From Patescibacteria group bacterium (lineage in GTDB: Bacteria > Patescibacteriota > Gracilibacteria > UBA4473), in the NCBI GenBank assembly GCA_965660445.1, contig CBFIAK010000002.1:64001-128000 (forward strand): a stretch of DNA of 64,000 nt, given 5' to 3'. Below, one piece after another: positions 6,515 to 53,780 of the stretch. Position 1 is the first letter of the stretch, and every line of letters begins with the position of its first letter. A model generated the notes under the pieces. It did not search any database and had not been told where the DNA came from. It saw nothing but the letters and a program-made list of their open reading frames with translations. A program made the translations under genes and the position numbers.

Positions 6515-6592
6515 GGGATCGTAGCTCAGTTGGTTTAGAGCGCCGCCCTGTCACGGCGGAGGTCGCGGGTTCGAGTCCCGTCGGTCCCGCCA
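6515..6592 (+). tRNA. tRNA-Asp(GUC)
   Basis: GGGATCGTAGCTCAGTTGG...CCGCC-CTGTCAC-GGCGG...GTTCGAGTCC...GCCA. Confidence 0.97.
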
Positions 6593-6636
6593 GATATACT
6601 TTTAAAAAAAAGAATCTGGTGAAAACAGTATATAGG

Positions 6637-6668
6637 AAAAAACCATATCATGCGATGTGGTTTTTTTT
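6637..6668 (+). terminator. intrinsic terminator after tRNA-Asp, probably bidirectional
   Basis: AAAAAACCATATC-ATGC-GATGTGGTTTTTTTT hairpin with A and T tracts. Confidence 0.7.
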
Positions 6669-6811
6669 GATACTAAAAAAAGGACGGATTTTTTGACACA
6701 TTTCGCAAATTTTCATAGAGTTTTCACGTATTAAGACGAGAGAGGATCCGGACGGTGTTAGTGCCTAAGGAGCCTTTTTCATGTATAAATCGTTTTTTTT
6801 AAGTCGTTAAA

Positions 6812-7558
6812 ATCTACAAAAGTAGAAATTTAATGGTGAAATTAAACAAATCCGAACCCAAAAAGCCAATTGATTCTATCTACAAAAGTAGAAATTTAAT
6901 GGTGAAATTAAACCAAAAGAAAGAGTTACTATTAGAATCTGATCTACAAAAGTAGAAATTTAATGGTGAAATTAAACCCAACTTGTTTTTGGTGTTTGGT
7001 ACGCCTATCTACAAAAGTAGAAATTTAATGGTGAAATTAAACTTGGAACAGGAGGTTGCAGACTTCGTTATCTACAAAAGTAGAAATTTAATGGTGAAAT
7101 TAAACAATAATATGACAAATAATATAAATAACATATCTACAAAAGTAGAAATTTAATGGTGAAATTAAACCTCCAACACCCTTGCAGGACGAGACTCATC
7201 TACAAAAGTAGAAATTTAATGGTGAAATTAAACTAAAAAGTACAAAATCATTATACCTATATAATCTACAAAAGTAGAAATTTAATGGTGAAATTAAACA
7301 CCGTATCCCCCTCCTTCGCTAATACTGATCTACAAAAGTAGAAATTTAATGGTGAAATTAAACTCATAAGTATAAGCATTTGATTCGCTTGTATCTACAA
7401 AAGTAGAAATTTAATGGTGAAATTAAACGGAGAAGATTTAATATGTATGTCAAACAGATCTACAAAAGTAGAAATTTAATGGTGAAATTAAACGAATATT
7501 ACTATTATGATGAACAACAATTATCTACAAAAGTAGAAATTTAATGGTGAAATTAAAC
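6812..7558 (-). CRISPR. type V-A CRISPR array, 12 identical 36-nt repeats and 11 spacers of 27-30 nt
   Basis: Repeat on minus strand GTTTAATTTCACCATTAAATTTCTACTTTTGTAGAT with the Cas12a AATTTCTAC-N4-GTAGAT handle. Plus-strand starts: 6812, 6878, 6942, 7007, 7070, 7135, 7198, 7264, 7328, 7393, 7458, 7523. Confidence 0.99.
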
Positions 7559-7734
7559 CCTTAAAATCTGATAGCAAAGCCAAAAGATACAAACAGTATC
7601 TTTTTGAGTGACCGCGACTTTTGGCTTTGTTATCATGTCTTCGAAAAATAAAGACTTAGGTTTGCTTGTTGTGTTAATTTCCTCACAGAAACTTATACCT
7701 TTGTGTGAATTAATGGAATGGGAAAGATCAAACG
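7559..7734 (-). promoter_or_regulatory. CRISPR leader with an 18-bp inverted repeat
   Basis: Lies between the cas2 stop and the first repeat; arms 7569-7586 and 7618-7635 match 17/18. Confidence 0.7.
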
Positions 7735-8013
7735 TTACAAAAATAGTATATCATCATCCATATTTTTTGCATAGCCGAACTTCATTATTTTATCAGTTGA
7801 TTTGTTTGATAGCCTGATAATCATAACACTATCGATTCCTGAAAAATGTTTTTTGTATCGTTTTTCTATTTCAGCAGTTATAAGGTTCAAAATTCTATCG
7901 CTATTTTTTATTTCATAGACTGAATATTGTAGGCGATATCCAAATTTTTTTAAAAAACTAGAAAACCGAGTTCTTACTTTGTCGTTAGAGATATCATAAG
8001 TTATGAGAAGCAT
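7735..8013 (-). CDS. cas2: CRISPR-associated endonuclease Cas2
   Basis: MLLITYDIS..K.RT.F..FLKKFG.RLQYSVYE. Confidence 0.96.
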   Translation of the reverse strand: MLLITYDISNDKVRTRFSSFLKKFGYRLQYSVYEIKNSDRILNLITAEIEKRYKKHFSGIDSVMIIRLSNKSTDKIMKFGYAKNMDDDILFL

Positions 8014-8015
8014 TT

Positions 8016-8972
8016 TTATTGTGGTTTATAGCATTGAAATTCTAGAGATTCTTTCATAGAAGCTCTGTAATATTCTTGTATATATTTAAATATTTCAGAT
8101 TTTTCTTTGAGTATAGCTTTGAAGAATATACTCGTATATTTTGTTCCTTTTTCGTATTTCAAAATATATTGTCCTTTTTGTATTTCGAAATCATTTTCAT
8201 CTACCTGTTTTAGATTAAATGCTTTGAGTAATTCTTTATCTATTATACATCGACAGGGTTCTATTATGTCGCATACTAAAGATTTTCTTTTATAAAATTC
8301 TTGATGAAGGTTTCCCACATATGTATCAAATCCATAAAGTCTTAACTGTGCATCAATAAAATGGAATAAAAATGTATATCCCATATCTAATAATAGATTT
8401 GGGATATCATATTTTGTGCGTGGCTTTCTTCCTTTCCACTTTATATTATAAAAATAGGAACTAAAAAATGATTTGGCGCAACTTCCTTCTATTCCCATAA
8501 GTTCATCAATAGCTTTTGTGTTTGTTATTTTTATTCTTCTTGTTTCTAGTACATCAGCTATTTCATCACCGCAAAATATTTTTGATCGAGTATTTCTGAG
8601 TATGTGAATTTGATTTTGTATTTTTGTATCTACTATTTTTTGTGCAATTTCGAATGAGTTCTTATTGCTATATTGTTTTTTCCTTAAAATAGTATTTCCC
8701 TCGGTTTCACTTCCTATGACTGCATATGTTTGAAAGTTTCGTTTTAAAAGAAATATAACAATTCCATAACTGAGAAGCTTTTTAATAATAACACTTGTTA
8801 GTGTGCATTCTCCCCATATAAATATCGCAAATATTTTAATACAAGGGACTTGTTGTTTTCTTATCCCGTCTTTTTTTAATAATAGATTGTCATTTTGAAA
8901 AGATATCTCTTTTGCATCTTGAGAGTTTATAAAAAGTATTTGTTTTGCACTGAAGTCGGGAAGAGATAACAT
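8016..8972 (-). CDS. cas1: type V CRISPR-associated endonuclease Cas1
   Basis: MLSLPDF start, LMGIEG, GRKPRTKYDIPNLLLDMGY, GNLHQEFYKRKSLVCDIIEP. Confidence 0.96.
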   Translation of the reverse strand: MLSLPDFSAKQILFINSQDAKEISFQNDNLLLKKDGIRKQQVPCIKIFAIFIWGECTLTSVIIKKLLSYGIVIFLLKRNFQTYAVIGSETEGNTILRKKQYSNKNSFEIAQKIVDTKIQNQIHILRNTRSKIFCGDEIADVLETRRIKITNTKAIDELMGIEGSCAKSFFSSYFYNIKWKGRKPRTKYDIPNLLLDMGYTFLFHFIDAQLRLYGFDTYVGNLHQEFYKRKSLVCDIIEPCRCIIDKELLKAFNLKQVDENDFEIQKGQYILKYEKGTKYTSIFFKAILKEKSEIFKYIQEYYRASMKESLEFQCYKPQ

Positions 8973-8978
8973 TTTTTA

Positions 8979-9527
8979 TTATTTATAAGAATCACACAAT
9001 TCGTTGTATATGCATTTTGAGCATTTATTTATATTTGTGTTTATATCTTGAGTAATACTATATGAACGCATTCTCTTTAGAGTGTTTTCAAATTTTGTTT
9101 TTTGGTATAGATCGGGCTTTTCTATTTCAGTTCTTTTATTATCAGTAAGAGAATGAATAAATAGTCTTTCAACACGGTGCCCCATTTCTTGAAGACAAAA
9201 CATCTGAGCCCATAATTGATATTTATATCCATCATAAATTTTAAAAATCTTATTTTTTCTTTCTATTAGGTGATTGTCTTTAGTATTCAGCATGTCTATT
9301 TTTCCACATAATCCGTATTTCTGACTATATACATCAAGGTTTGTGATCCATTTCTTTTCAGATGAATACTTTTTTTGATCAATTGATTCATGGGCTATTT
9401 TTCCATTCCTTTGTGATTCTTGATGATAAATTGCTTCATTATATTTTTGATATAATTTATGAAAATAAATAGACTTTGGGCAGAAAACAAAGTCGTTGAT
9501 ATTTGAAATAGGGATGTATGATTCCAT
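8979..9527 (-). CDS. cas4: type V CRISPR-associated Cas4
   Basis: ISNINDFVFCPKSIYFH, GKIDM, ERK, QLWAQMFCL, C-terminal CxxCxxxxxC FeS ligands. Confidence 0.95.
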   Translation of the reverse strand: MESYIPISNINDFVFCPKSIYFHKLYQKYNEAIYHQESQRNGKIAHESIDQKKYSSEKKWITNLDVYSQKYGLCGKIDMLNTKDNHLIERKNKIFKIYDGYKYQLWAQMFCLQEMGHRVERLFIHSLTDNKRTEIEKPDLYQKTKFENTLKRMRSYSITQDINTNINKCSKCIYNELCDSYK

Positions 9528-9637
9528 TTTTTATATTAAAGTAAAATATCAAAAATATATGTCAATTTTATTTTGTGATTTAAAAAGATTGAAAATCTTA
9601 ATTTTTTCTTTATATTTTAATAAATATCTATTGTGTT

Positions 9638-12600
9638 ATGAATGAATATGAGCTCCCGTATGAACAAAGAAAAACTATTCGTTTTTCCTTGGAACCAAAG
9701 GAGATAGGAAGAGTATATGAGCCAATAAAATCCTCAAAAAATTTAGGTGAACAACTTCAAGATTTTATTACACAATATCAATCAATTATTACTAATTTAG
9801 AAAAGCAAATCTTTTTTAATAAAGATGGGAAAAAAAGTTTAAAGAAGAAAATTTGCATAAAACATGCATGGCTTCGAACTTACACTAAAACAGAATTTTA
9901 TAATGTAAAATATAAAATTATCATTGTTGATAATGATGGGCGAAAAAGAGATAATAAAAGCTTAATTAGTGACACTGATTTATCTTTTTTGAAAGAGTAT
10001 TTTGAAAATTGGATTATTGAAAATCAGGAATGCGTGAATAGTTTACAAAGTTTTTTAGAGCAACCAGAAGAAAGCCAAAAACGGATTTCCGAGTTCGCCT
10101 ATTGGATCCAAAGAATTTCAAAGCGAAGTAATTTTGAAGCTCTTTTTGAATTGTTTAATGAAAATATTAATCATAAAGACAGTAATGAAGAAATTGATAG
10201 AATTAAAAAGGTTTTGAATGAATGTAAACTATTACTAAAAACTTTGGAAAAAGAACTTTTGCCTAGCCAGTCTTTGGGATTAGAAATTGAACGAGCAAGC
10301 TTGAATTATTATACCGTGAATAAAAAACCGAAAGATTATGATGAGGAAATAAACAAGAAAAAAGAGGCTCTTTCAGAGAGCGACAGCTTTCAAAAAGCAG
10401 ATATAGATTTATTTACAAAAGTTGAATTTACCGAAAAAGACCTTCCTATCGGGGATCTTAAACAAGCAATGAAAGTATTTAAAGCAAACCAGAAGTCAAA
10501 GTTTTATGAGTTTGTTAATCAAAATAAAAGTTATGATGACTTACAAAATAATGATGGGTTAAAATTGTTAAATGACATTATCAAAGCAAATTTTAATAAA
10601 TTTAAAAGTGAGAAGGACAAGCAAAAAAGAGGTAAGCACTTTCAATTTTCATTCAGTAAATATAAGAAATTCTGCAATATATATAAAAATATTGTTGTAA
10701 AATACGGTCAAATTAAAGCTAAAATCAAAACTCTAGAAAAAGAAAAGATAGATGCCGAGCGGATGCAATCATGGGCGATGATTTTAGAGAAAGACAATCA
10801 AAAATATATTCTTACGATTCCACGTGATGCTCATAGTAATCTTCCAAGTGCTAAAAATTATATTAATGGTCTGAAAGATGAACTAGATGGTACATGGAAA
10901 CTTCATGCTTTTGAATCTTTAACATTGCGGGCGTTGGATAAGCTTTGTTTTGGATTAGATAAAAACACATTTCTTCCGACAATAAAAGATGAATTACAGC
11001 AAAAAGATGCATCTTTTCTTGAAGCTGGAAATCTAAAGCGAAAAGATCAGTTTTCTGATGATGGTTTAGAGTTGATTAAGTTTTATCAGACAGTTTTAGG
11101 TTTGGACGCAACTCGAAAGGTTCTAGCGATAAGTGATTTTAAAGGACTAGCAGCGATTATAGGTAATGAGAATTATGAGAACAAAGAAGAGTTTGAAAAA
11201 GACTTAAAACAAGCTTGTTACTATAAAAAAGCAATTACTATTTCTAAAGAAACTAAAAACACATTGGTCAAATCCTACAAAGGAAATCTGTATAAAATCA
11301 CCAGTTATGATTTGCAGAAGAAAGATAATGAAGAAATCAACAAATTAGAAAATAAGCAAGAATTTGATAGAAGTAATTCTGAAGTACACACTAAAATTTG
11401 GTTAAATTTCTGGACGGTAGATAATACTAAAAGAAGATATGATATAAGGCTTAATCCGGAATTAAAGATTAGTTTTGTAGAGAAGAAAACTGAAGAGTTG
11501 AAAGATGAAAATTTGGGAATGTTAAAGAAGAATAGAAGACAAGAAGATAGATATTTACTTTCAACAACTATTACCTTACAAGCCCATAAACGAAATGCTG
11601 ATTTGTCATTTAAGGGAACGGATGAAATTGTGAACTTTATTCAGACATATAACGATGAATTCAATAAAAATATAAAACCTTTTGATATTTACTACTATGG
11701 TTTGGATAGAGGACAGAAAGAGCTTCTTACTTTAGGAGTGTTTAAGTTTTTGGAATCAAAAAAAATTCCGTTTACAAAACAAGATAATTCATCAGGAAAA
11801 TACTATAAGCCAGAATTTATTCCAATTGAAGCATATGAGCTAAAATCAGATAAGTTTTTAGAACAAAATGAGAAAGGTAGAATAGCTTATAAAAGTATTT
11901 CTGAATTTATAGATAATACCGATATTGTTAAGAAAAAAGATATTAATTCTTGTTTTGATATGTCTACCGCCAAATTAATTAAAGACAAAATTGTTATCAA
12001 TGGCGATATTGCAACATATCTTGAGCTAAAACGAATAAGCGCATTGCGGAAAATTTATGAAGGAACAACACAAGGGAAATTTAAGTCCGAAAATATCTGC
12101 TTTAATGCGGATAAAGGAGCATTATTTCTCAATATAGAAAATAGAGGAAAATTGGAGAATAAAGATTTGTATTTTTATGATGAACGCTTTGCAAGTATTC
12201 TTTCCTTGAATGATATCAAAAAAGAATTACAAGATTATTACAGTACTCTTAAAAATAAAGGCGGAGTTGAAATTATTACCATTGATAAAGTAAATAATCT
12301 TCGCGATGCTCTTTGCGCTAACGCAGTTGGTATTTTAAATCATTTGCAAAAACAATTCTCTGGAATGATGTTTTTCGAAAATTTGGATATTTCAAATAAA
12401 AATCAAAGAATTAGTGAATTTTCAGGGAATCTAGGAAGTCGAATTGAATGGAAATTACTACAAAAATTTCAAACTCTTAATCTAGTGCCTCCCAATTATA
12501 AACAGGCAATGATCTTGCAAAGCAAAAAAAGTATTAACCAACTGGGAATAATTGCATATATAAAAACGAGTGGTACTAGTAACGAATGTCCTCATTGTGG

Positions 12601-12787
12601 CACAAAAAATTCAGATAAAACGAAAAAATGGCAGGGACATGCTTATGAGTGTATAAATAGCCACTGTCTATTTAGTACAGAAGATAAGGGAAATAGGCAA
12701 GGTCTTGATTGTCTTGATGATTCAGATAAAGTGGCAAGTTATAATATTGCAAAAAGGGGACTAGACTTCATTATTAGAAAAAAATAA
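9638..12787 (+). CDS. divergent type V effector, Cms1/Cas12a2-related (Smithella-type, Cas12a3-like), 1049 aa
   Basis: WED start KTIRFSLEP; RuvC-I YGLD690RG, RuvC-II FFE914NL, RuvC-III DSD1030KVASYNIAKRG; Zn ribbon C984PHC987...C1005...C1010. Motifs LPSQSLG..ASLNYYTVNKK, FESLTLRALDKLCFG, RLNPE and DMSTAKLIKDKIVINGD resemble Smithella Cms1 as recalled from memory. Confidence 0.85.
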   Translation: MNEYELPYEQRKTIRFSLEPKEIGRVYEPIKSSKNLGEQLQDFITQYQSIITNLEKQIFFNKDGKKSLKKKICIKHAWLRTYTKTEFYNVKYKIIIVDNDGRKRDNKSLISDTDLSFLKEYFENWIIENQECVNSLQSFLEQPEESQKRISEFAYWIQRISKRSNFEALFELFNENINHKDSNEEIDRIKKVLNECKLLLKTLEKELLPSQSLGLEIERASLNYYTVNKKPKDYDEEINKKKEALSESDSFQKADIDLFTKVEFTEKDLPIGDLKQAMKVFKANQKSKFYEFVNQNKSYDDLQNNDGLKLLNDIIKANFNKFKSEKDKQKRGKHFQFSFSKYKKFCNIYKNIVVKYGQIKAKIKTLEKEKIDAERMQSWAMILEKDNQKYILTIPRDAHSNLPSAKNYINGLKDELDGTWKLHAFESLTLRALDKLCFGLDKNTFLPTIKDELQQKDASFLEAGNLKRKDQFSDDGLELIKFYQTVLGLDATRKVLAISDFKGLAAIIGNENYENKEEFEKDLKQACYYKKAITISKETKNTLVKSYKGNLYKITSYDLQKKDNEEINKLENKQEFDRSNSEVHTKIWLNFWTVDNTKRRYDIRLNPELKISFVEKKTEELKDENLGMLKKNRRQEDRYLLSTTITLQAHKRNADLSFKGTDEIVNFIQTYNDEFNKNIKPFDIYYYGLDRGQKELLTLGVFKFLESKKIPFTKQDNSSGKYYKPEFIPIEAYELKSDKFLEQNEKGRIAYKSISEFIDNTDIVKKKDINSCFDMSTAKLIKDKIVINGDIATYLELKRISALRKIYEGTTQGKFKSENICFNADKGALFLNIENRGKLENKDLYFYDERFASILSLNDIKKELQDYYSTLKNKGGVEIITIDKVNNLRDALCANAVGILNHLQKQFSGMMFFENLDISNKNQRISEFSGNLGSRIEWKLLQKFQTLNLVPPNYKQAMILQSKKSINQLGIIAYIKTSGTSNECPHCGTKNSDKTKKWQGHAYECINSHCLFSTEDKGNRQGLDCLDDSDKVASYNIAKRGLDFIIRKK

Positions 12788-12821
12788 GAAAAACTAGTTT
12801 TCAATCAGAATGAATCCATTT

Positions 12822-15800
12822 TTATTCTTTTGTAAACGTAAAGTCGTCCCATTCTGTGTTTGATATATAGAGGTTTGGGTATTTGCTAAAATCAGAATCT
12901 GTGTGAGCGTGATCGGATAGTTTCTGTAAGAGAATAATTCCTTTTTTTGCGATATTATAAGCTCCATTCTCATCGCCATTAGTTGGAAGATTATTATTTT
13001 CTACTTTTCTACTATCAAAAAAAGGTTTTACAGGAGAAAGAATGAAGTCTTGTTTATTGATATCGTTTTCTTTTTCATCCGTGTTTCGTATCTGACAAAT
13101 TAAGTTAAAATAGAAGATGACATCCTTGAAAAATTGTTCATTCCCCTTTGTTTCTAATTCGTCAATTTGTCCTAAAATATTGCGATTCTTATCAAGGTTA
13201 TAAGTTTCAAATAATAATTCTATGTTTTTTGTAATATCTCTAAAGTGTTCATATCCACCTTTGTTGTTATTTGATTGCCGATTCCATCGAAAACGTTCTA
13301 CGCAACTGTAAACTGTCCAAATAGTGTTTTGAGGATATTCTTTTTGTTTTCGAAAATTTCGGATATTATAGGTGAATTCAAATCTTCCATTTTGAAATTC
13401 TATATTTGAGAATGTTAATATATCTTTTTTTGCATTTTCAGTATTCGAATATTTTAGATATAAATGAGGTCTCCATCCAGTAACGGGATCAATTTTTGAT
13501 GTATATGCTGCTTGTGTATAGAATATTATCCCAGTTTGTTTTCCCATTTTTTGGAAACTATCAAACGGGGCAGTAAGTTGGTATGCTCTCAATAGGTGTC
13601 CTGCTTTTTGAGGATCTATTTCGCCTTTGTGAACAAGAAATCCTAGTTTATCAATCAATGCTTTTTCAAGTTGTTGATAAATTGATTTTTCTATTCCTCC
13701 ACGAATTTGTTTAAATCGCATATTCAGATCTTCTAAAACAATGATTGCATTATGCTCAATTGCAAGATCGGCAAGTTTACGTACAACTTGTGAAATATAC
13801 CCTTTTTTTAAGTCTTTTATTCCTTCTACGGTTTGCCAATCTTTTCGGGCTTGTTCTCTGTGTTCAGCTTTTTCTTGTAGTTTTTCTGCATAATTTATCT
13901 GCGTATCGTTTCCTCCTTTTATAGTATTTAAACTTCCACTCTCAATTATTTTTCCTGCTTGTGTAATCACCGAATAATAGGCAAGATGTTTTTCTCCTCG
14001 GTCTACGCCAATAATATTTATATCTTGGTTATTTGCGAGAAAAGTATTTATTTTACTATTAAATTGAGATACATTATTTTCTGTTCTATTAAGTGTTATT
14101 GGAACATGAAAAAATATTTTGTTTTCAGTAAATCGATTTTTATGAAATGCTTTTTCGCTTTTTTCAAGAACTATTCCCTGATTTGTAGTAATTTTTTCTT
14201 TTTTTAAGTCTTTTGTTTTTGGTCGATAAAATATCTCGGCTTGTCCATTTAGTTTTATAGGGAAATTTTGAGATATGTTTTCATCAGAAAAAAGCGATTC
14301 AAAGTAAAGAGTATGAAGATTTTTAGATCCTCTAGATCCTTCATTCCAATCTTTGTTTTTAATTTGAAAGAGATAAAGTTCTCCACTTTTATTCTTTTCT
14401 TTTATATATGATTCGGAAATATCTTGAAAGGTTATTTTATAACCATCTTCAGCTACATCTCTAAAAAATTCGCCAATATTATCTTGGTAGTTTGTAGTTG
14501 TTTTTATATGAGTAAAATTATATCCTTTCCATCCTTCATATTGATTCAAGCAATTTTTATAAAAATCGATAAGTTTATGCATACTTGCAATGGAGAACGA
14601 ATCGCCTTTCTTGAATTCTTCATTTTTGTAAATATTTAAAATTTCTTCTGAAGGATAGAATTCATTTATTCCTTTTTTTGAAAAGCAAACTTTGGGAAAC
14701 ATCTTTGCTTGATCTGGAAAGAATTTATATACAACCTTTTGATATTTTCCTTGTTCAATGTTTTGGGAGAACTTTTCTTTGTTCCGTTTATCAAATATTT
14801 TATTGTTTCCTTTCTTCATCAGCCCAATAAAGTATCTCTCATCTTTTCGTAAAAGAATAGCTGAATTATCGGATTCTTTATTCTTATCCCATCCATCCGC
14901 AAGTGTGGGATTCTCAAAATTGAGTTTCCATTTTTCTTCGCTATATGGTTTTTTTGTAAGATAGTTTCTTATTTTGTTATACGGTTGTATGATTTCCTCA
15001 TAAGCATTGTTATAAAAATGATCTTTGTATCCAAAATTAGGGTCATTATAAAAATTTCCAATTATGTAATCATCCCCAACCCATTTTCTTTTTTTCTCAA
15101 GAGAGAAATATTTTGCTATTTGATAAATACTTAAAACAGAGTCAGCAAAATTTTTGATAATAATCTTTGAATCTGAATTGAGTGTGAAATTATCAAGGAG
15201 ATTTGAGAAATCTTTTTCAAAGGTGTTATATCCAATTCCTATTACGGAGTCTGTTTTTGAATTAATTATTTCTCTATTAAAAAGAGAGTTAAACTCATAA
15301 TGAAAAATCGTTAAAAACTGATTCCAAATATTTTTTTCTGTGTGATTTAAAATCTCATTATATCTTTCTTTCCACATATTTCCTTCAAGTATTATATCTT
15401 CTAATGCGTTTTTAATATGTTCAAGTGCTATAAAATCAGGAAATGAATAGCCTCCATCTTTTTTTTTCGCAGATGATGTGATTTTTTTGTTTTTTAAAAT
15501 CTCAAAAATATGCTTTTCTAAAAATTCAGTTTCATTTGTCCATTTATGGGTAATGGTATTGAGAGCTTCTTTTGAGATGTGTATTTCAGAAAGATTATAT
15601 TTTTCTTGATTATTAATAAAATCAGTGAAAAGATTTCTTAAAATAATTGTTTTTGTCTCTGCTGATTGATGAAATGTTTTTAAAACTTCTAATAAGTCTG
15701 ATTCTCCTTCTATTTCATCAATAATTTCTTTTTCATATTCACTGAGTATTTGTTTGTCTAATAATTTAAAAAATGGAATCTTTTCACCTTTATTATCTTG

Positions 15801-16655
15801 TCTGTATTTATTGATACATTCATTAAGCCCTTTTAGTTTTTCTCCATTTTTTAGTGTTTTTCCTCCTAAGAGGGTATTGTATACATTAATACCATCTTGT
15901 AATAAACAAGAATTGTAGAAATCCAAAGAAAAAATACTTGAAAGTGATTGTCCGAAATTGAATTCTACTTCTGAGAAATCTATTTTTTCTTTTATACTCT
16001 CAAAAATAAGGATATTATCACAAAAACGTTTTAAATTTTGATCCACTATGCGAGTTGCAATTGCAGTCGTTGTTCCATCATCTTTATAGAAATTCTTACG
16101 AGTTTCAAAGAACTTTATAAAATATCCAGTAAAACCTTTCCAACTATCAAAAATAGAAATAACCTCATTTGTACTCTCATCTATTATTGTTGATTTTTCT
16201 TCCTCTCCATATCGTTCTTTGAGAATCTTAAAGATTTCTTCTTCAAAAAGAATACCTATATCGTTTTTCTTTATTTTTAAATGTGAATATTGTTGTGCCC
16301 AAATTTTGCCTTGTTCGTGAAAAAAGGTAATAACTTCTTTTCTGAGTTCTTTTTCTTTTTTTTTTATTTCTTTTGTATAATTTTTTTGATCAATTCTCCA
16401 TTTCTTAAAAATATCTAACTACTCTTTATTTAATCCAGAGAGAACTGCATTTTGAAGTGATTTCTGAACAAACTCTCTATGAAGACGATCAAAATAGGGT
16501 TTAGTAGCCTCATATTTTATTTTGATTGTTTCATCTTTCTCAAAAACTTTATTTTCTTCTAATAATTGTTGTGTATTGCCCACTGGTTTTAATTCAAAGC
16601 GTAATGTTTTACTAATTGGGTACTGATTGACGAAACTATCAAAGACAGATGACAT
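12822..16655 (-). pseudogene. cas12a: Cas12a (Cpf1), 1277 codons, with one in-frame TAG at codon 79 (16419-16421)
   Basis: YPISKTLRFELKP start, KLNFENPTLADGWDKNKE, LYLFQIKNKD, NLHTLYF, IIGVDRGE, IVLEDLN, GDENGAYNIA. The two ORFs share one frame and the region between them translates without other stops. Confidence 0.92.
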
Positions 16656-16743
16656 GTTTAATAAAATAAAAACATTCTTTTTATATCATAAAATGAAATA
16701 TTCTGAAAATTTAATTTCTATCACTATTTTATAAATACTCATC

Positions 16744-16765
16744 AAAAAACCCTTTAATAGAGTTT
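16744..16765 (-). terminator. putative terminator after tRNA-Arg
   Basis: Minus-strand AAACTCT-ATTAA-AGGGTTT followed by TTT. Confidence 0.5.
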
Positions 16766-16787
16766 AGATGTACAGTATGGAGCTTGG

Positions 16788-16862
16788 TGGTACCCCCGCC
16801 AAGAATTGAACTTGGATCTTCAGCTTAGAAGGCTGTTGCTCTATCCATTGAGCTACAGGGGC
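16788..16862 (-). tRNA. tRNA-Arg(UCU)
   Basis: GCCCCTGTAGCTCAATGGATAGAGCA-ACAGC-CTTCTAA-GCTGA...GTTCAATTC...GGGGGTACCA. Confidence 0.95.
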
Positions 16863-16989
16863 GTTTGGAAAACGGAGGGATTATAAGAAAAGAAGAAAAA
16901 AAAGAAAAGAAAAAATTTGACGCTCTTTCATTTTTTTATACAATTTTGAGGCTCTTGGCAAAAGAGGTATTCCTCATATATTTGCATAC

Positions 16990-17064
16990 GTCACCATCGT
17001 CTAGTGGTTAGGACGCCAGGTTTTCATCCTGGTAACGGGGGTTCGATTCCCCCTGGTGATGCCA
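16990..17064 (+). tRNA. tRNA-Glu(UUC)
   Basis: GTCACCATCGTCTAGTGGTTAGGAC-G-CCAGG-TTTTCAT-CCTGG...GTTCGATTCC...GCCA. Confidence 0.96.
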
Positions 17065-52283: not shown

Positions 52284-52310
52284 AAATAATTATTTTAATC
52301 TTTTCTTCTT

Positions 52311-52556
52311 ATGTCTAAAAAACCAGTACCGTCCAAGAAACAAGCCGTTAGTTCTACTCGTTCAAGACACGGTAAATATGTCGCATTACAAAGAAAACGA
52401 CTAGAAGAAGGAGTTGTGCTTGATACTTGTCCTACAACGGGAGAGGTAAAACGACGTCACTTTGCTTCTGAAAGTGGTTATTATAAAGGAAAAAAATTGT
52501 TTGATACCAAAGCGGATAAGCAGTCGAAAAATGTTATTCGTGAAATTCAGGCATAG
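52311..52556 (+). CDS. rpmF: 50S ribosomal protein L32
   Basis: PVPSKKQA...CPTTGEVKRRHFASESGYYKG. Confidence 0.88.
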   Translation: MSKKPVPSKKQAVSSTRSRHGKYVALQRKRLEEGVVLDTCPTTGEVKRRHFASESGYYKGKKLFDTKADKQSKNVIREIQA

Positions 52557-52595
52557 TGTTGGTGTTTCTTTTTCCATTCTCTTTTCTATCTCCGT

Positions 52596-53048
52596 ATGTC
52601 TCATAACAAAAAAGAACGTCATGAAAGCCGTGTAATGGCTGTAGAAGGACTTTTTAATTACTTACTGCGTGATGAGTACGGATCTCCTGTGAGTATAAAA
52701 GATGTGTTAGATCACGTTTTTTCTTTGCACGAAGTGAAAGGGAACGATTTTACTGAATCTTTAGTACGTATCACCCTTGATAACCTTTCAAAGATTAAGG
52801 TTGTTTTAAAAGTGTATGCTCCTGAATTCACATTTGATAAAATTGCGCCTATTAACCGATCAATTTTAATTTTAGGGTTATCAGAGTTGAAATATTTTGA
52901 TACGCCACCTATTGTGGTTATTAACGAATATATAGAAATCGCAAAAGAGTTCGGAGAAGATAAATCTGCTGGGTTTGTGAATGGTGTGCTTGATGCATTT
53001 CGGAAAAATATTGGAAAAGAACGAGAGAATGAATTAGAATCACAATAG
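52596..53048 (+). CDS. nusB: transcription antitermination factor NusB
   Basis: RHESRVMAVEGLF, INRSILILG, VVINEYIEIAKEFG..SAGFVNGVL. Confidence 0.94.
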   Translation: MSHNKKERHESRVMAVEGLFNYLLRDEYGSPVSIKDVLDHVFSLHEVKGNDFTESLVRITLDNLSKIKVVLKVYAPEFTFDKIAPINRSILILGLSELKYFDTPPIVVINEYIEIAKEFGEDKSAGFVNGVLDAFRKNIGKERENELESQ

Positions 53049-53063
53049 TTTTTTTATTTTTGC

Positions 53064-53780
53064 ATGTTTGTTTACCCTCAACCGTTGTTTGACCATATTG
53101 GTTTTACTCTTGAAAATACAGATCGCCTACAAGAGGTGTTTACTCATCGTTCTGCGGTCAATGAACATTCTGATTTTTCTTCTCATAATGAACGATTGGA
53201 GTTTTTAGGAGATGCGGTATTGGAACTCATTGCAACTGATTTTTTATTCGATCGGTTTTCGGATTTTTCAGAAGGCGATTTAACAAATATTCGTTCAGCA
53301 TTAGTGCGAGGGGATCATTTAGCAGCAATAGCACGTCGCTTGGATTTTGGGGCATATCTTATCTTATCACGTGGGGAACGACGATCTGGTGGGGCAGAAA
53401 AAGATTACTTACTAGCGAATGTATTAGAAGCTTTTATAGGGGCGGTGTATTTAGAAAAAGGTTTTATGGGAGCGTATGATTTTGTAAAACGTTTTATTCT
53501 TGTTGATGTTGATGATATTTTAGCTTCAAATACTCATATCGATGCGAAATCAGAGTTTCAAGAACTCGTACAGGAGCGGTATGGCATAACACCTTATTAT
53601 AAAGTTATTCATGAATCTGGGCTTGATCATGAAAAAACATTTGAAGTAGAAGCTTTTGTAGAAAATATTTCAGTTGGAAAAGGATCAGGTCGATCCAAAA
53701 AAGAGGCACAGTCGAAAGCAGCATTACAGGCATTGGAAACAAAAGATAAATGGATTTCTTTCTTGTCTGAGCAACAATGA
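53064..53780 (+). CDS. rnc: ribonuclease III
   Basis: HNERLEFLGDAVL, EAFIGA, dsRBD DAKSEFQE...GRSKKEAQ. Confidence 0.97.
   Translation: MFVYPQPLFDHIGFTLENTDRLQEVFTHRSAVNEHSDFSSHNERLEFLGDAVLELIATDFLFDRFSDFSEGDLTNIRSALVRGDHLAAIARRLDFGAYLILSRGERRSGGAEKDYLLANVLEAFIGAVYLEKGFMGAYDFVKRFILVDVDDILASNTHIDAKSEFQELVQERYGITPYYKVIHESGLDHEKTFEVEAFVENISVGKGSGRSKKEAQSKAALQALETKDKWISFLSEQQ

What the first reader, a model, noticed from the sequence alone, without database searches (positions are those of the whole stretch)
16380..16655. cas12a knocked out by one amber codon while otherwise pristine
Seen: minus strand ...TTA AAT AAA GAG TAG TTA GAT ATT TTT AAG AAA TGG reads LNKE*LDIFKKW. The frame then runs uninterrupted into the 1074-aa ORF, for 1277 codons in total, with the RuvC D/E/D residues intact. 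The TAG is probably a one-base change from a Tyr codon (inference). TAG is a real stop elsewhere (mutY, dnaN), so this is not global recoding. Inference: a recent loss of the DNA-targeting arm would leave the second effector as the only interference nuclease, a snapshot of effector replacement. Alternatives are a consensus error, a population polymorphism or low-level readthrough.
Basis: partly seen in the sequence, partly recalled or inferred. Interest (0 to 1): 0.7.

Follow-up and report, generated by a model that had tools for sequence, protein, structure and literature searches.

The report
cas12a broken by one amber codon
A CRISPR DNA-cutting gene (cas12a) in a small environmental bacterial genome is switched off by a single premature stop codon while a second, RNA-sensing effector next to it stays intact; this looks like an ordinary, very young gene loss.

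Summary
On the minus strand an ATG at 16655 opens a 1277-codon Cas12a frame. It has one internal stop, TAG at 16419-16421 (codon 79), and ends with TAA at 12822-12824. All 30 aligned homologues have Tyr at that position, so the TAG is one base away from TAT or TAC.

The genome uses the standard code. RF1 and RF2 are present, there is no tRNA-CUA and no PylS, TAG ends 157 of 786 long open frames, and rpmF and nusB end in TAG.

An independent assembly of the probable source run gives the same base at about 18.6x. Only contigs were available, so a minority intact allele is not excluded. The rest of the gene shows no decay, which bounds neutral drift since the mutation to about 1.3% per site.

The neighbouring 1049-aa gene on the opposite strand is intact. 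It is closest to solved Cas12a3 (TM 0.74-0.76) but lacks the roughly 106-residue tRNA-loading domain.

Best reading: a genuine, recent nonsense allele of cas12a in a dual-effector type V locus. "Effector replacement" is plausible but not shown.

The parts
16419..16421 (-). In-frame TAG (amber) at codon 79 of cas12a
   Evidence: The aligned column is Tyr in 30 of 30 homologues. The Logan contig of run X1 covers it with 0 differences.
12822..16655 (-). Complete cas12a reading frame: 1277 codon positions including the amber, plus the terminal TAA
   Evidence: translation; Pfam RuvC_1 1.1e-81, REC1, PI, NUC, REC2; TIGR04330, 936 bits; closest homologue 71% identical, 1271 aa.
16422..16655 (-). N-terminal 78 sense codons upstream of the amber. 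This is the only product expected if termination is efficient.
   Evidence: They align to residues 1-78 of the homologues.
12822..16046 (-). 1074-aa ORF from the first in-frame start after the amber (GTG, codon 204). This is the form held in the protein collection as the window's own protein (P0002).
9638..12787 (+). Second type V effector, 1049 aa. It is Cas12a3-related, intact, and convergent with cas12a.
8979..9527 (-). cas4
   Evidence: PF01930, 3.1e-10.
8016..8972 (-). cas1
   Evidence: PF01867, 1.8e-53.
7735..8013 (-). cas2
   Evidence: PF09827, 9.8e-15.
6812..7558 (-). CRISPR array: 12 identical 36-nt repeats and 11 spacers of 27-30 nt. In the minus-strand sense the repeat ends TCTACTTTTGTAGAT.
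   Evidence: No spacer matches the organism's own genome outside the array.
6515..6592 (+). tRNA-Asp bounding the low-GC CRISPR-Cas island on one side
16788..16862 (-). tRNA-Arg bounding the island on the other side

Best explanation
cas12a carries a genuine Tyr79-to-amber nonsense allele (TAT or TAC changed to TAG at the third base), and this is the dominant sequence in the sampled population. The organism reads TAG as stop, so ribosomes terminate after 78 residues. No canonical in-frame start follows until codon 204. Full-length Cas12a is therefore not made, or only in trace amounts, and the DNA-targeting arm is null. The lesion is very young, because the remaining 1198 codons are still indistinguishable from a gene under selection. 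The adaptation genes, the uniform array and the Cas12a3-related effector on the opposite strand remain intact. That effector's relatives use arrays whose repeat ends in the same 22 nt of 3' sequence, so crRNA-guided immunity probably continues through it alone. Shown: the sequence, the code and the intactness of the other parts. Inferred: loss of function, shared use of the crRNA, and fixation.
For: The TAG and the single frame are. Tyr is present in 30 of 30 homologues at that column. Evidence for the standard code: RF1 at 445 bits and RF2 at 415 bits, both over their cut-offs; 36 tRNAs with none carrying anticodon CUA; PylS at 36.6 bits against a cut-off of 178. Terminal stops of open segments of at least 150 codons are TAA 491, TAG 157 and TGA 138. 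Same-frame segment pairs split by one stop are TAA 77, TAG 15 and TGA 9, so TAG shows no excess. rpmF and nusB end in TAG. Among 101 such pairs cas12a is the outlier, with 124 codons to the next start. The next two (64 and 44 codons) are not split genes by Pfam. A Logan contig of run X1 (9761 nt, depth 18.6) covers 7523-17026 with 0 differences, and no variant contig is listed at the site. The genome has no second copy or variant contig. On recency: 684 of 11484 possible single-base changes (5.96%) would create a stop, so the absence of a second stop limits neutral change to about 49 substitutions, or 1.3% per site, at P=0.05. The query departs from 19 of 493 highly conserved columns (3.85%, counting the amber). 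The 30 intact homologues range from 0.8 to 13.2%, and 14 of them are higher than the query. No other cas12a gene examined has a solitary stop. Of the 11 next to a second effector, 9 have none and 2 have only TGA (34 and 13). Of the 6 in related genomes, 5 have none and 1 has only TGA. The 11 spacers hit only the organism's own array.
Against: Only contigs could be laid, not raw reads, and they come from a run that may be the source of the assembly. The check is therefore not independent data, and contigs drop rare variants. A co-existing intact allele, or a systematic base error in the reads, cannot be excluded. No RNA or protein data exist for this organism, so loss of function is inferred from the genetic code, not observed. 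The closest homologue is only 71% identical and the closest in related genomes 56-68%. No sister allele is therefore available for a dN/dS test of relaxed selection.
Confidence: 0.65

Rival explanations
1. The TAG is not the state of most cells. It is either a base-calling or consensus error, or one allele of a population polymorphism in which an intact Tyr79 allele persists.
For: The genome is assembled from a metagenome in 5 contigs. Only contigs of the probable source run could be examined, and these drop rare variants. A gene that looks otherwise fully intact is also what an error would produce.
Against: A second assembler's contig from the same run reproduces the base at k-mer depth 18.6. 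It shows 0 differences over 9.5 kb, and no alternative contig is listed at the site. A substitution error in a consensus at that depth is uncommon (general knowledge).
Confidence: 0.22
2. The amber codon is leaky or conditionally suppressed, so some full-length Cas12a is still made. Possible routes are near-cognate readthrough (for example by tRNA-Tyr GUA or tRNA-Gln CUG) or a suppressor tRNA brought in by an invading element.
For: The frame after the TAG is fully preserved. tRNA-Tyr(GUA) and tRNA-Gln(CUG) exist in the genome. That phages can carry amber suppressor tRNAs is recalled knowledge and comes from no call.
Against: RF1 is present and the genome has no suppressor tRNA. Preservation of the frame is equally explained by a young lesion. 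None of the other 17 cas12a genes examined has such a codon, so it is not a conserved feature. The base after the stop is T. I recall this as a strong termination context in E. coli, but it was not tested here.
Confidence: 0.1
3. TAG is a sense codon in this organism, through code reassignment or pyrrolysine, and the gene is intact.
For: None beyond the open frame itself.
Against: RF1 is over its cut-off. There is no tRNA-CUA and no PylS over its cut-off. TAG ends 157 of 786 long open segments, including rpmF and nusB. There is only one TAG in 1277 codons. Truly recoded lineages show 13-56 in-frame TGA per cas12a gene (L026, L029 and G057).
Confidence: 0.01

Closest known systems
Tandem type V-A loci with cas12a and cas12a2 next to one shared CRISPR array (Dmytrenko et al. 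2023, PMC9811890; passages read)
   Same: The window has a Cas12a gene and a second, related RuvC and zinc-ribbon effector beside cas4-cas1-cas2 and one array of Cas12a-type repeats. I found the same layout in fetched loci: cas12a, then the second effector, cas4, cas1, cas2 and the array, in L013, L017, L018, L020, L026, L029, L035 and L036.
   Different: Here the second effector lies on the opposite strand, convergent with cas12a, whereas it shares the strand in all 8 complete tandem loci. It is much closer to Cas12a3 than to Cas12a2. The cas12a gene carries a premature stop.
Cas12a3 (Ba1Cas12a3, PDB 9hlx; BaCas12a3, PDB 21we), an RNA-activated nuclease that cuts tRNA 3' CCA tails (PMC12851939, passages read; bioRxiv 10.64898/2026.01.16.699850, passages read)
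   Same: These are the best sequence and fold matches of the 1049-aa neighbour. phmmer gives 1.8e-71 and 1.4e-68, the family profile gives 2.5e-146 and 1.4e-144, and Foldseek gives TMq 0.74-0.76 at E about 1e-48. The RuvC D/E/D residues and the Cys/His zinc ribbon are conserved in the family.
   Different: Identity is only 23-25%. The protein is about 120-135 residues shorter. It has about 39 residues (809-848) where Ba1Cas12a3 has residues 846-960. That stretch holds the tRNA-loading domain, residues 855-960, with R902, Y922 and N924. All 27 aligned family members have the short form.
Canonical Cas12a/Cpf1 (FnCas12a, LbCas12a, AsCas12a, ReChb; solved structures)
   Same: The match to TIGR04330 is full length. 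All five Pfam Cas12a domains are present. The C-terminal 408 residues align to ReChb at 1.6e-87 and to FnCas12a at 3.9e-76, with the RuvC motifs conserved.
   Different: The frame is interrupted at codon 79, so it does not encode a full-length protein under the organism's code.

Membership tests
Cas12a (type V-A effector) | Full-length similarity to the curated Cas12a model and its domain set | tested here: met
   TIGR04330 scores 936 bits against a cut-off of 300. Pfam finds REC1, REC2, PI, RuvC_1 and NUC.
Cas12a (type V-A effector) | RuvC catalytic D/E/D residues | tested here: met
   D885, E975 and D1228 are invariant in 31 sequences. The motifs align with ReChb. That these columns are the catalytic triad is recalled knowledge.
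Cas12a (type V-A effector) | Uninterrupted coding sequence giving a full-length protein | tested here: not met
   TAG at codon 79 in a genome that reads TAG as stop.
Cas12a (type V-A effector) | Adjacent cas4-cas1-cas2 and an array of 36-nt repeats ending in the crRNA handle stem | tested here: met
   The same repeat ending is seen in related loci.
Cas12a (type V-A effector) | crRNA-guided, PAM-dependent dsDNA cleavage | not testable with these tools
   This needs biochemistry.
Cas12a3 | Closest sequence and fold relationship to solved Cas12a3, with RuvC triad and zinc ribbon | tested here: met
   Cas12a2 is far weaker (7e-18; TMq 0.43-0.47).
Cas12a3 | tRNA-loading domain (Ba1Cas12a3 residues 855-960) that positions the CCA tail | tested here: not met
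   About 39 residues stand in place of chain residues 846-960. All 27 family members have 57-74 residues between query positions 800 and 860. Domain limits are from PMC12851939. This rests on sequence alignment only.
Cas12a3 | RNA-triggered cleavage of tRNA 3' tails | not testable with these tools
   This needs biochemistry.
Cas12a4 | Membership of the Cas12a4 clade (ApCas12a4) | not tested
   No Cas12a4 sequence or structure was available.
TAG-reassigned or pyrrolysine genetic code | Loss of RF1, or a tRNA-CUA with PylS, and many in-frame TAG codons in conserved genes | tested here: not met

The most novel reading that the evidence does not exclude
The amber codon acts as a gate, not a lesion. 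In uninfected cells Cas12a is off. An invading element that brings an amber-suppressor tRNA, as TAG-recoded phages do (recalled knowledge), would read through codon 79. It would thereby switch on the host's DNA-cutting effector alongside the RNA-sensing one. The evidence does not exclude this. The downstream frame is fully preserved, and the host has RF1 and no suppressor of its own. Nothing specifically supports it either.
Probability: 0.03. Interest if true: 0.85.

Novelty: new member of a known kind. Interest (0 to 1): 0.3.

Why it matters
Taken at face value this is an ordinary event: a nonsense allele in a defence gene of an uncultured bacterium with a genome of about 1 Mb. It has some value as a natural example. 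In a dual-effector type V locus the DNA-targeting Cas12a can be lost while the adaptation genes, the array and the RNA-sensing effector remain. This fits with loci elsewhere that have only the second effector (L012, L042). The more useful by-product concerns the second effector. It belongs to a family found mostly in Patescibacteria-labelled records, with 62 hits. The family is closest to Cas12a3 but lacks the tRNA-loading domain, so its collateral substrate is an open question that can be tested.

Tried and rejected
- **Self-targeting spacers as a cause of Cas12a loss.** The 11 spacers match only their own array. Rejected.
- **Other split genes.** I screened 101 same-frame segment pairs. Only cas12a stands out, and the next three candidates showed no domain spanning the stop. 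The screen does not see frameshifts or short fragments.
- **Inverted repeats or promoter and terminator signals** that would explain the opposite orientation of the second effector or an internal restart. Nothing exceeded chance: 53 promoter-like sites against 57.4 expected, and 3 terminator-like sites against 3.3.
- **Protospacers.** The two leader-proximal spacers gave 0 exact matches in viral contigs. The other 9 were not searched.
- **RNA evidence.** No RNA holder is listed among the sequencing runs.
- **Runs X2 to X4.** They held only tRNA-like or distant pieces and no allele of this gene.
- **dN/dS.** Not computed. The nearest homologue is 71% identical in protein, so synonymous sites would be saturated and recent relaxation would be invisible.
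- **Literature.** A search for natural cas12a pseudogenes (listing only) returned genome-editing papers and nothing relevant. Whether Cas12a3 loci with cas12a are tabulated in the supplements of PMC12851939 could not be checked, because supplements are closed.
- **Taxonomy.** The atlas look-up of RF1 confirmed the family only.
- **Earlier findings of this scan.** Nothing was shown.

Full report
**What is there**

On the minus strand an ATG at 16655 opens a frame that runs to TAA at 12822-12824. It has one internal stop, TAG at 16419-16421, which is codon 79. ORF listing splits the frame into a 78-aa ORF and a 1074-aa ORF that begins at GTG 16046.

The read-through product is an unmistakable Cas12a:
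- Pfam finds RuvC_1 (1.1e-81), REC1, PI, NUC and REC2.
- NCBIfam TIGR04330 scores 936 bits against a cut-off of 300.
- The C-terminal 408 residues align to solved Cas12a chains, ReChb at 1.6e-87 and FnCas12a at 3.9e-76, with the RuvC motifs kept.

**The locus**

The parts on the minus strand are:
- cas12a, 16655..12822.
- cas4, 9527..8979.
- cas1, 8972..8016.
- cas2, 8013..7735.
- An array of 12 identical 36-nt repeats at 6812-7558, with 11 spacers of 27-30 nt. In the minus sense the repeat ends TCTACTTTTGTAGAT.

Between cas12a and cas4, on the plus strand, lies a 1049-aa ORF (9638..12787) with no Pfam or NCBIfam hit.

The block is bounded by tRNA-Asp (6515-6592) and tRNA-Arg (16788-16862). 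Its G+C is 26.5-31.5%, against 36.7% for the largest contig.

**Is TAG a stop in this organism?**

Yes. The evidence is as follows.
- The 991-kb genome (5 contigs, completeness 100, contamination 0.74) encodes RF1 at 445 bits and RF2 at 415 bits, both over their curated cut-offs.
- ARAGORN finds 36 tRNAs and none with anticodon CUA.
- The PylS model scores 36.6 bits against a cut-off of 178. This is a cross-hit of a kind also seen in 13 of 14 control genomes.
- Open segments of at least 150 codons end in TAA 491 times, TAG 157 times and TGA 138 times.
- Same-frame neighbours separated by one stop number TAA 77, TAG 15 and TGA 9, so TAG shows no excess.
- In the window, rpmF and nusB each end in TAG directly before the next gene in the same frame.
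- Lineages that really recode a stop look quite different. Three cas12a genes fetched from elsewhere carry 34, 13 and 56 in-frame TGA codons and no other stop (L026 and L029; G057).

**What the codon was**

In an alignment of the read-through protein with 30 homologues (56-71% identical), the column holds Tyr in 30 of 30. TAT and TAC are each one third-position change from TAG. Within the gene TAT is used 47 times and TAC 13 times.

**Is the base real?**

One run (X1, flagged as a possible source of this DNA) holds all sampled words of the region.
- Its Logan contig of 9761 nt, at depth 18.6, covers 7523-17026 with 0 differences, and no alternative contig is listed at the site.
- That contig skips most of the array (6811 to 7523), as expected for repeats.

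This argues against an assembler-specific error. It is the same data, though, and contigs drop rare variants. Raw reads were not available. A minority intact allele, or an error present in the reads themselves, therefore remains possible.

**How old is the lesion?**

Of the 11484 possible single-base changes in the other 1276 codons, 684 (5.96%) would create a stop. The chance of seeing no second stop falls below 0.05 after about 49 random substitutions, which is 1.3% per site. Thirteen homopolymer runs of 7-10 bases are all in frame.

In a leave-one-out test the query departs from 19 of 493 columns that are at least 90% conserved in the others (3.85%, counting the amber itself). The 30 intact homologues range from 0.8 to 13.2%, and 14 of them are higher than the query. 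There is no sign of decay beyond the one codon.

dN/dS was not computed. The nearest relatives are too distant: 71% in the protein collection and 56-68% in 60 related genomes, where cas12a was found in 6.

**Consequence for the protein**

After the TAG the first in-frame ATG, GTG or TTG is GTG at codon 204. Among 101 same-frame segment pairs in the genome this gap of 124 codons is the largest. The next two (64 and 44 codons) are not split genes by Pfam.

A product starting at codon 204 would lack the N-terminal segment that includes the conserved KTLRFEL stretch. From recalled knowledge of Cas12a structures, that stretch is part of the WED domain that holds the crRNA handle. Loss of function is therefore the likely outcome, but it is inferred.

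**Why the gene might have been lost**

Autoimmunity is not supported, because the 11 spacers hit only their own array in the genome.

None of the other cas12a genes examined has a solitary stop:
- Of the 11 next to a second effector, 9 are clean and 2 have TGA only.
- Of the 6 in related genomes, 5 are clean and 1 has TGA only.

The amber codon is therefore not a conserved feature of such loci.

**The second effector**

The 1049-aa protein matches only Cas12a3 chains in the PDB by phmmer: Ba1Cas12a3 9hlx at 1.8e-71 and 21we at 1.4e-68.
- A profile of 27 family members gives 2.5e-146 and 1.4e-144 for Cas12a3, against 7e-18 for SuCas12a2 8d49.
- An AlphaFold2 model (pLDDT 85.1, pTM 0.75) matches Cas12a3 at TMq 0.74-0.76, Cas12a2 at 0.43-0.47 and Cas12a at about 0.3.
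- The family keeps the RuvC residues (D690, E914, D1030) and the zinc-ribbon Cys and His residues.

According to passages of PMC12851939, Cas12a3 recognises target RNA and then cuts tRNA 3' CCA tails. It uses a tRNA-loading domain, residues 855-960 of Ba1Cas12a3, whose removal strongly reduces activity.

Here about 39 residues (809-848) stand where Ba1Cas12a3 has residues 846-960. All 27 family members are short at this point, with 57-74 residues between query positions 800 and 860. The protein is therefore a Cas12a3 relative that fails one defining feature. Its collateral substrate is unknown. Membership of Cas12a4 could not be tested, because no sequence was available and supplements are closed.

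**Comparison with other loci**

Tandem cas12a plus cas12a2 next to one array is in print (PMC9811890, passages). Among 39 fetched loci encoding relatives of the second effector:
- Eight show cas12a, second effector, cas4, cas1, cas2 and the array all on one strand: L013, L017, L018, L020, L026, L029, L035 and L036. L015 is partial.
- L012 and L042 have the second effector with adaptation genes and no cas12a within 10 kb upstream.
- The closest relatives of the window's protein, L005 (74% identity) and L007 (61%), have only the effector and a small array.
- The L005 repeat ends in the same 22 nt of 3' sequence as the window's repeat, so shared use of the crRNA is plausible.

The window differs from all eight tandem loci in that its second effector is on the opposite strand. 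No flanking inverted repeats explain this.

**Verdict**

The most likely explanation is a real and very recent Tyr79-to-amber null allele of cas12a in a dual-effector type V locus (0.65).
- Rival: error or polymorphism, 0.22.
- Rival: leaky or conditional suppression, 0.10.
- Rival: recoding of TAG, about 0.01.

The "effector replacement" story is consistent with the existence of loci that have only the second effector, but it is not demonstrated. This is a new instance of a known kind of event and of modest interest. The domain-less Cas12a3 relative is the more promising lead.

Noticed in passing
window 9638-12787 (+); family P0122-P0183: The second effector belongs to a family of 62 database hits, with source names mostly Patescibacteria. 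The family is closest to Cas12a3 in sequence and fold but lacks the roughly 106-residue tRNA-loading domain in all 27 members aligned. It may be Cas12a4 or an undescribed clade.
   Followed up: partly
L026:1532-4957, L029:4140-7814, G057:C1:169445-173227: These cas12a genes carry 34, 13 and 56 in-frame TGA codons and no other stop. They presumably come from lineages that read TGA as sense. L026 and L029 are in tandem with a second effector.
   Followed up: no
window 6515-16862: The whole CRISPR-Cas block sits between tRNA-Asp and tRNA-Arg/tRNA-Glu. Its G+C is 26.5-31.5%, against about 34-41% in the rest of the window. cas12a is patchy among relatives, found in 6 of 60 genomes. This suggests a horizontally acquired island.
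   Followed up: partly
window 6811-7523: The Logan contig of run X1 joins 6811 to 7523, collapsing the 12-repeat array to a single repeat. This is most likely an assembly effect of the repeats and not a deletion variant.
   Followed up: no
L005 (CAZAKN010000011.1): The closest relative of the second effector (74% identity) lies on a contig titled as an uncultured Gammaproteobacteria MAG. It has a 3-repeat array and no cas12a or adaptation genes within 10 kb. Either the binning is wrong or the gene has moved between phyla.
   Followed up: no
window 52299-53777 (+): rpmF, nusB and rnc lie in one reading frame. The first two are each terminated by TAG, which at first glance mimics a TAG-interrupted gene.
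   Followed up: yes
window 16046-16418 (-): No ATG, GTG or TTG occurs in frame for 124 codons after the amber codon. This is the longest such gap among 101 same-frame segment pairs in the genome.
   Followed up: yes
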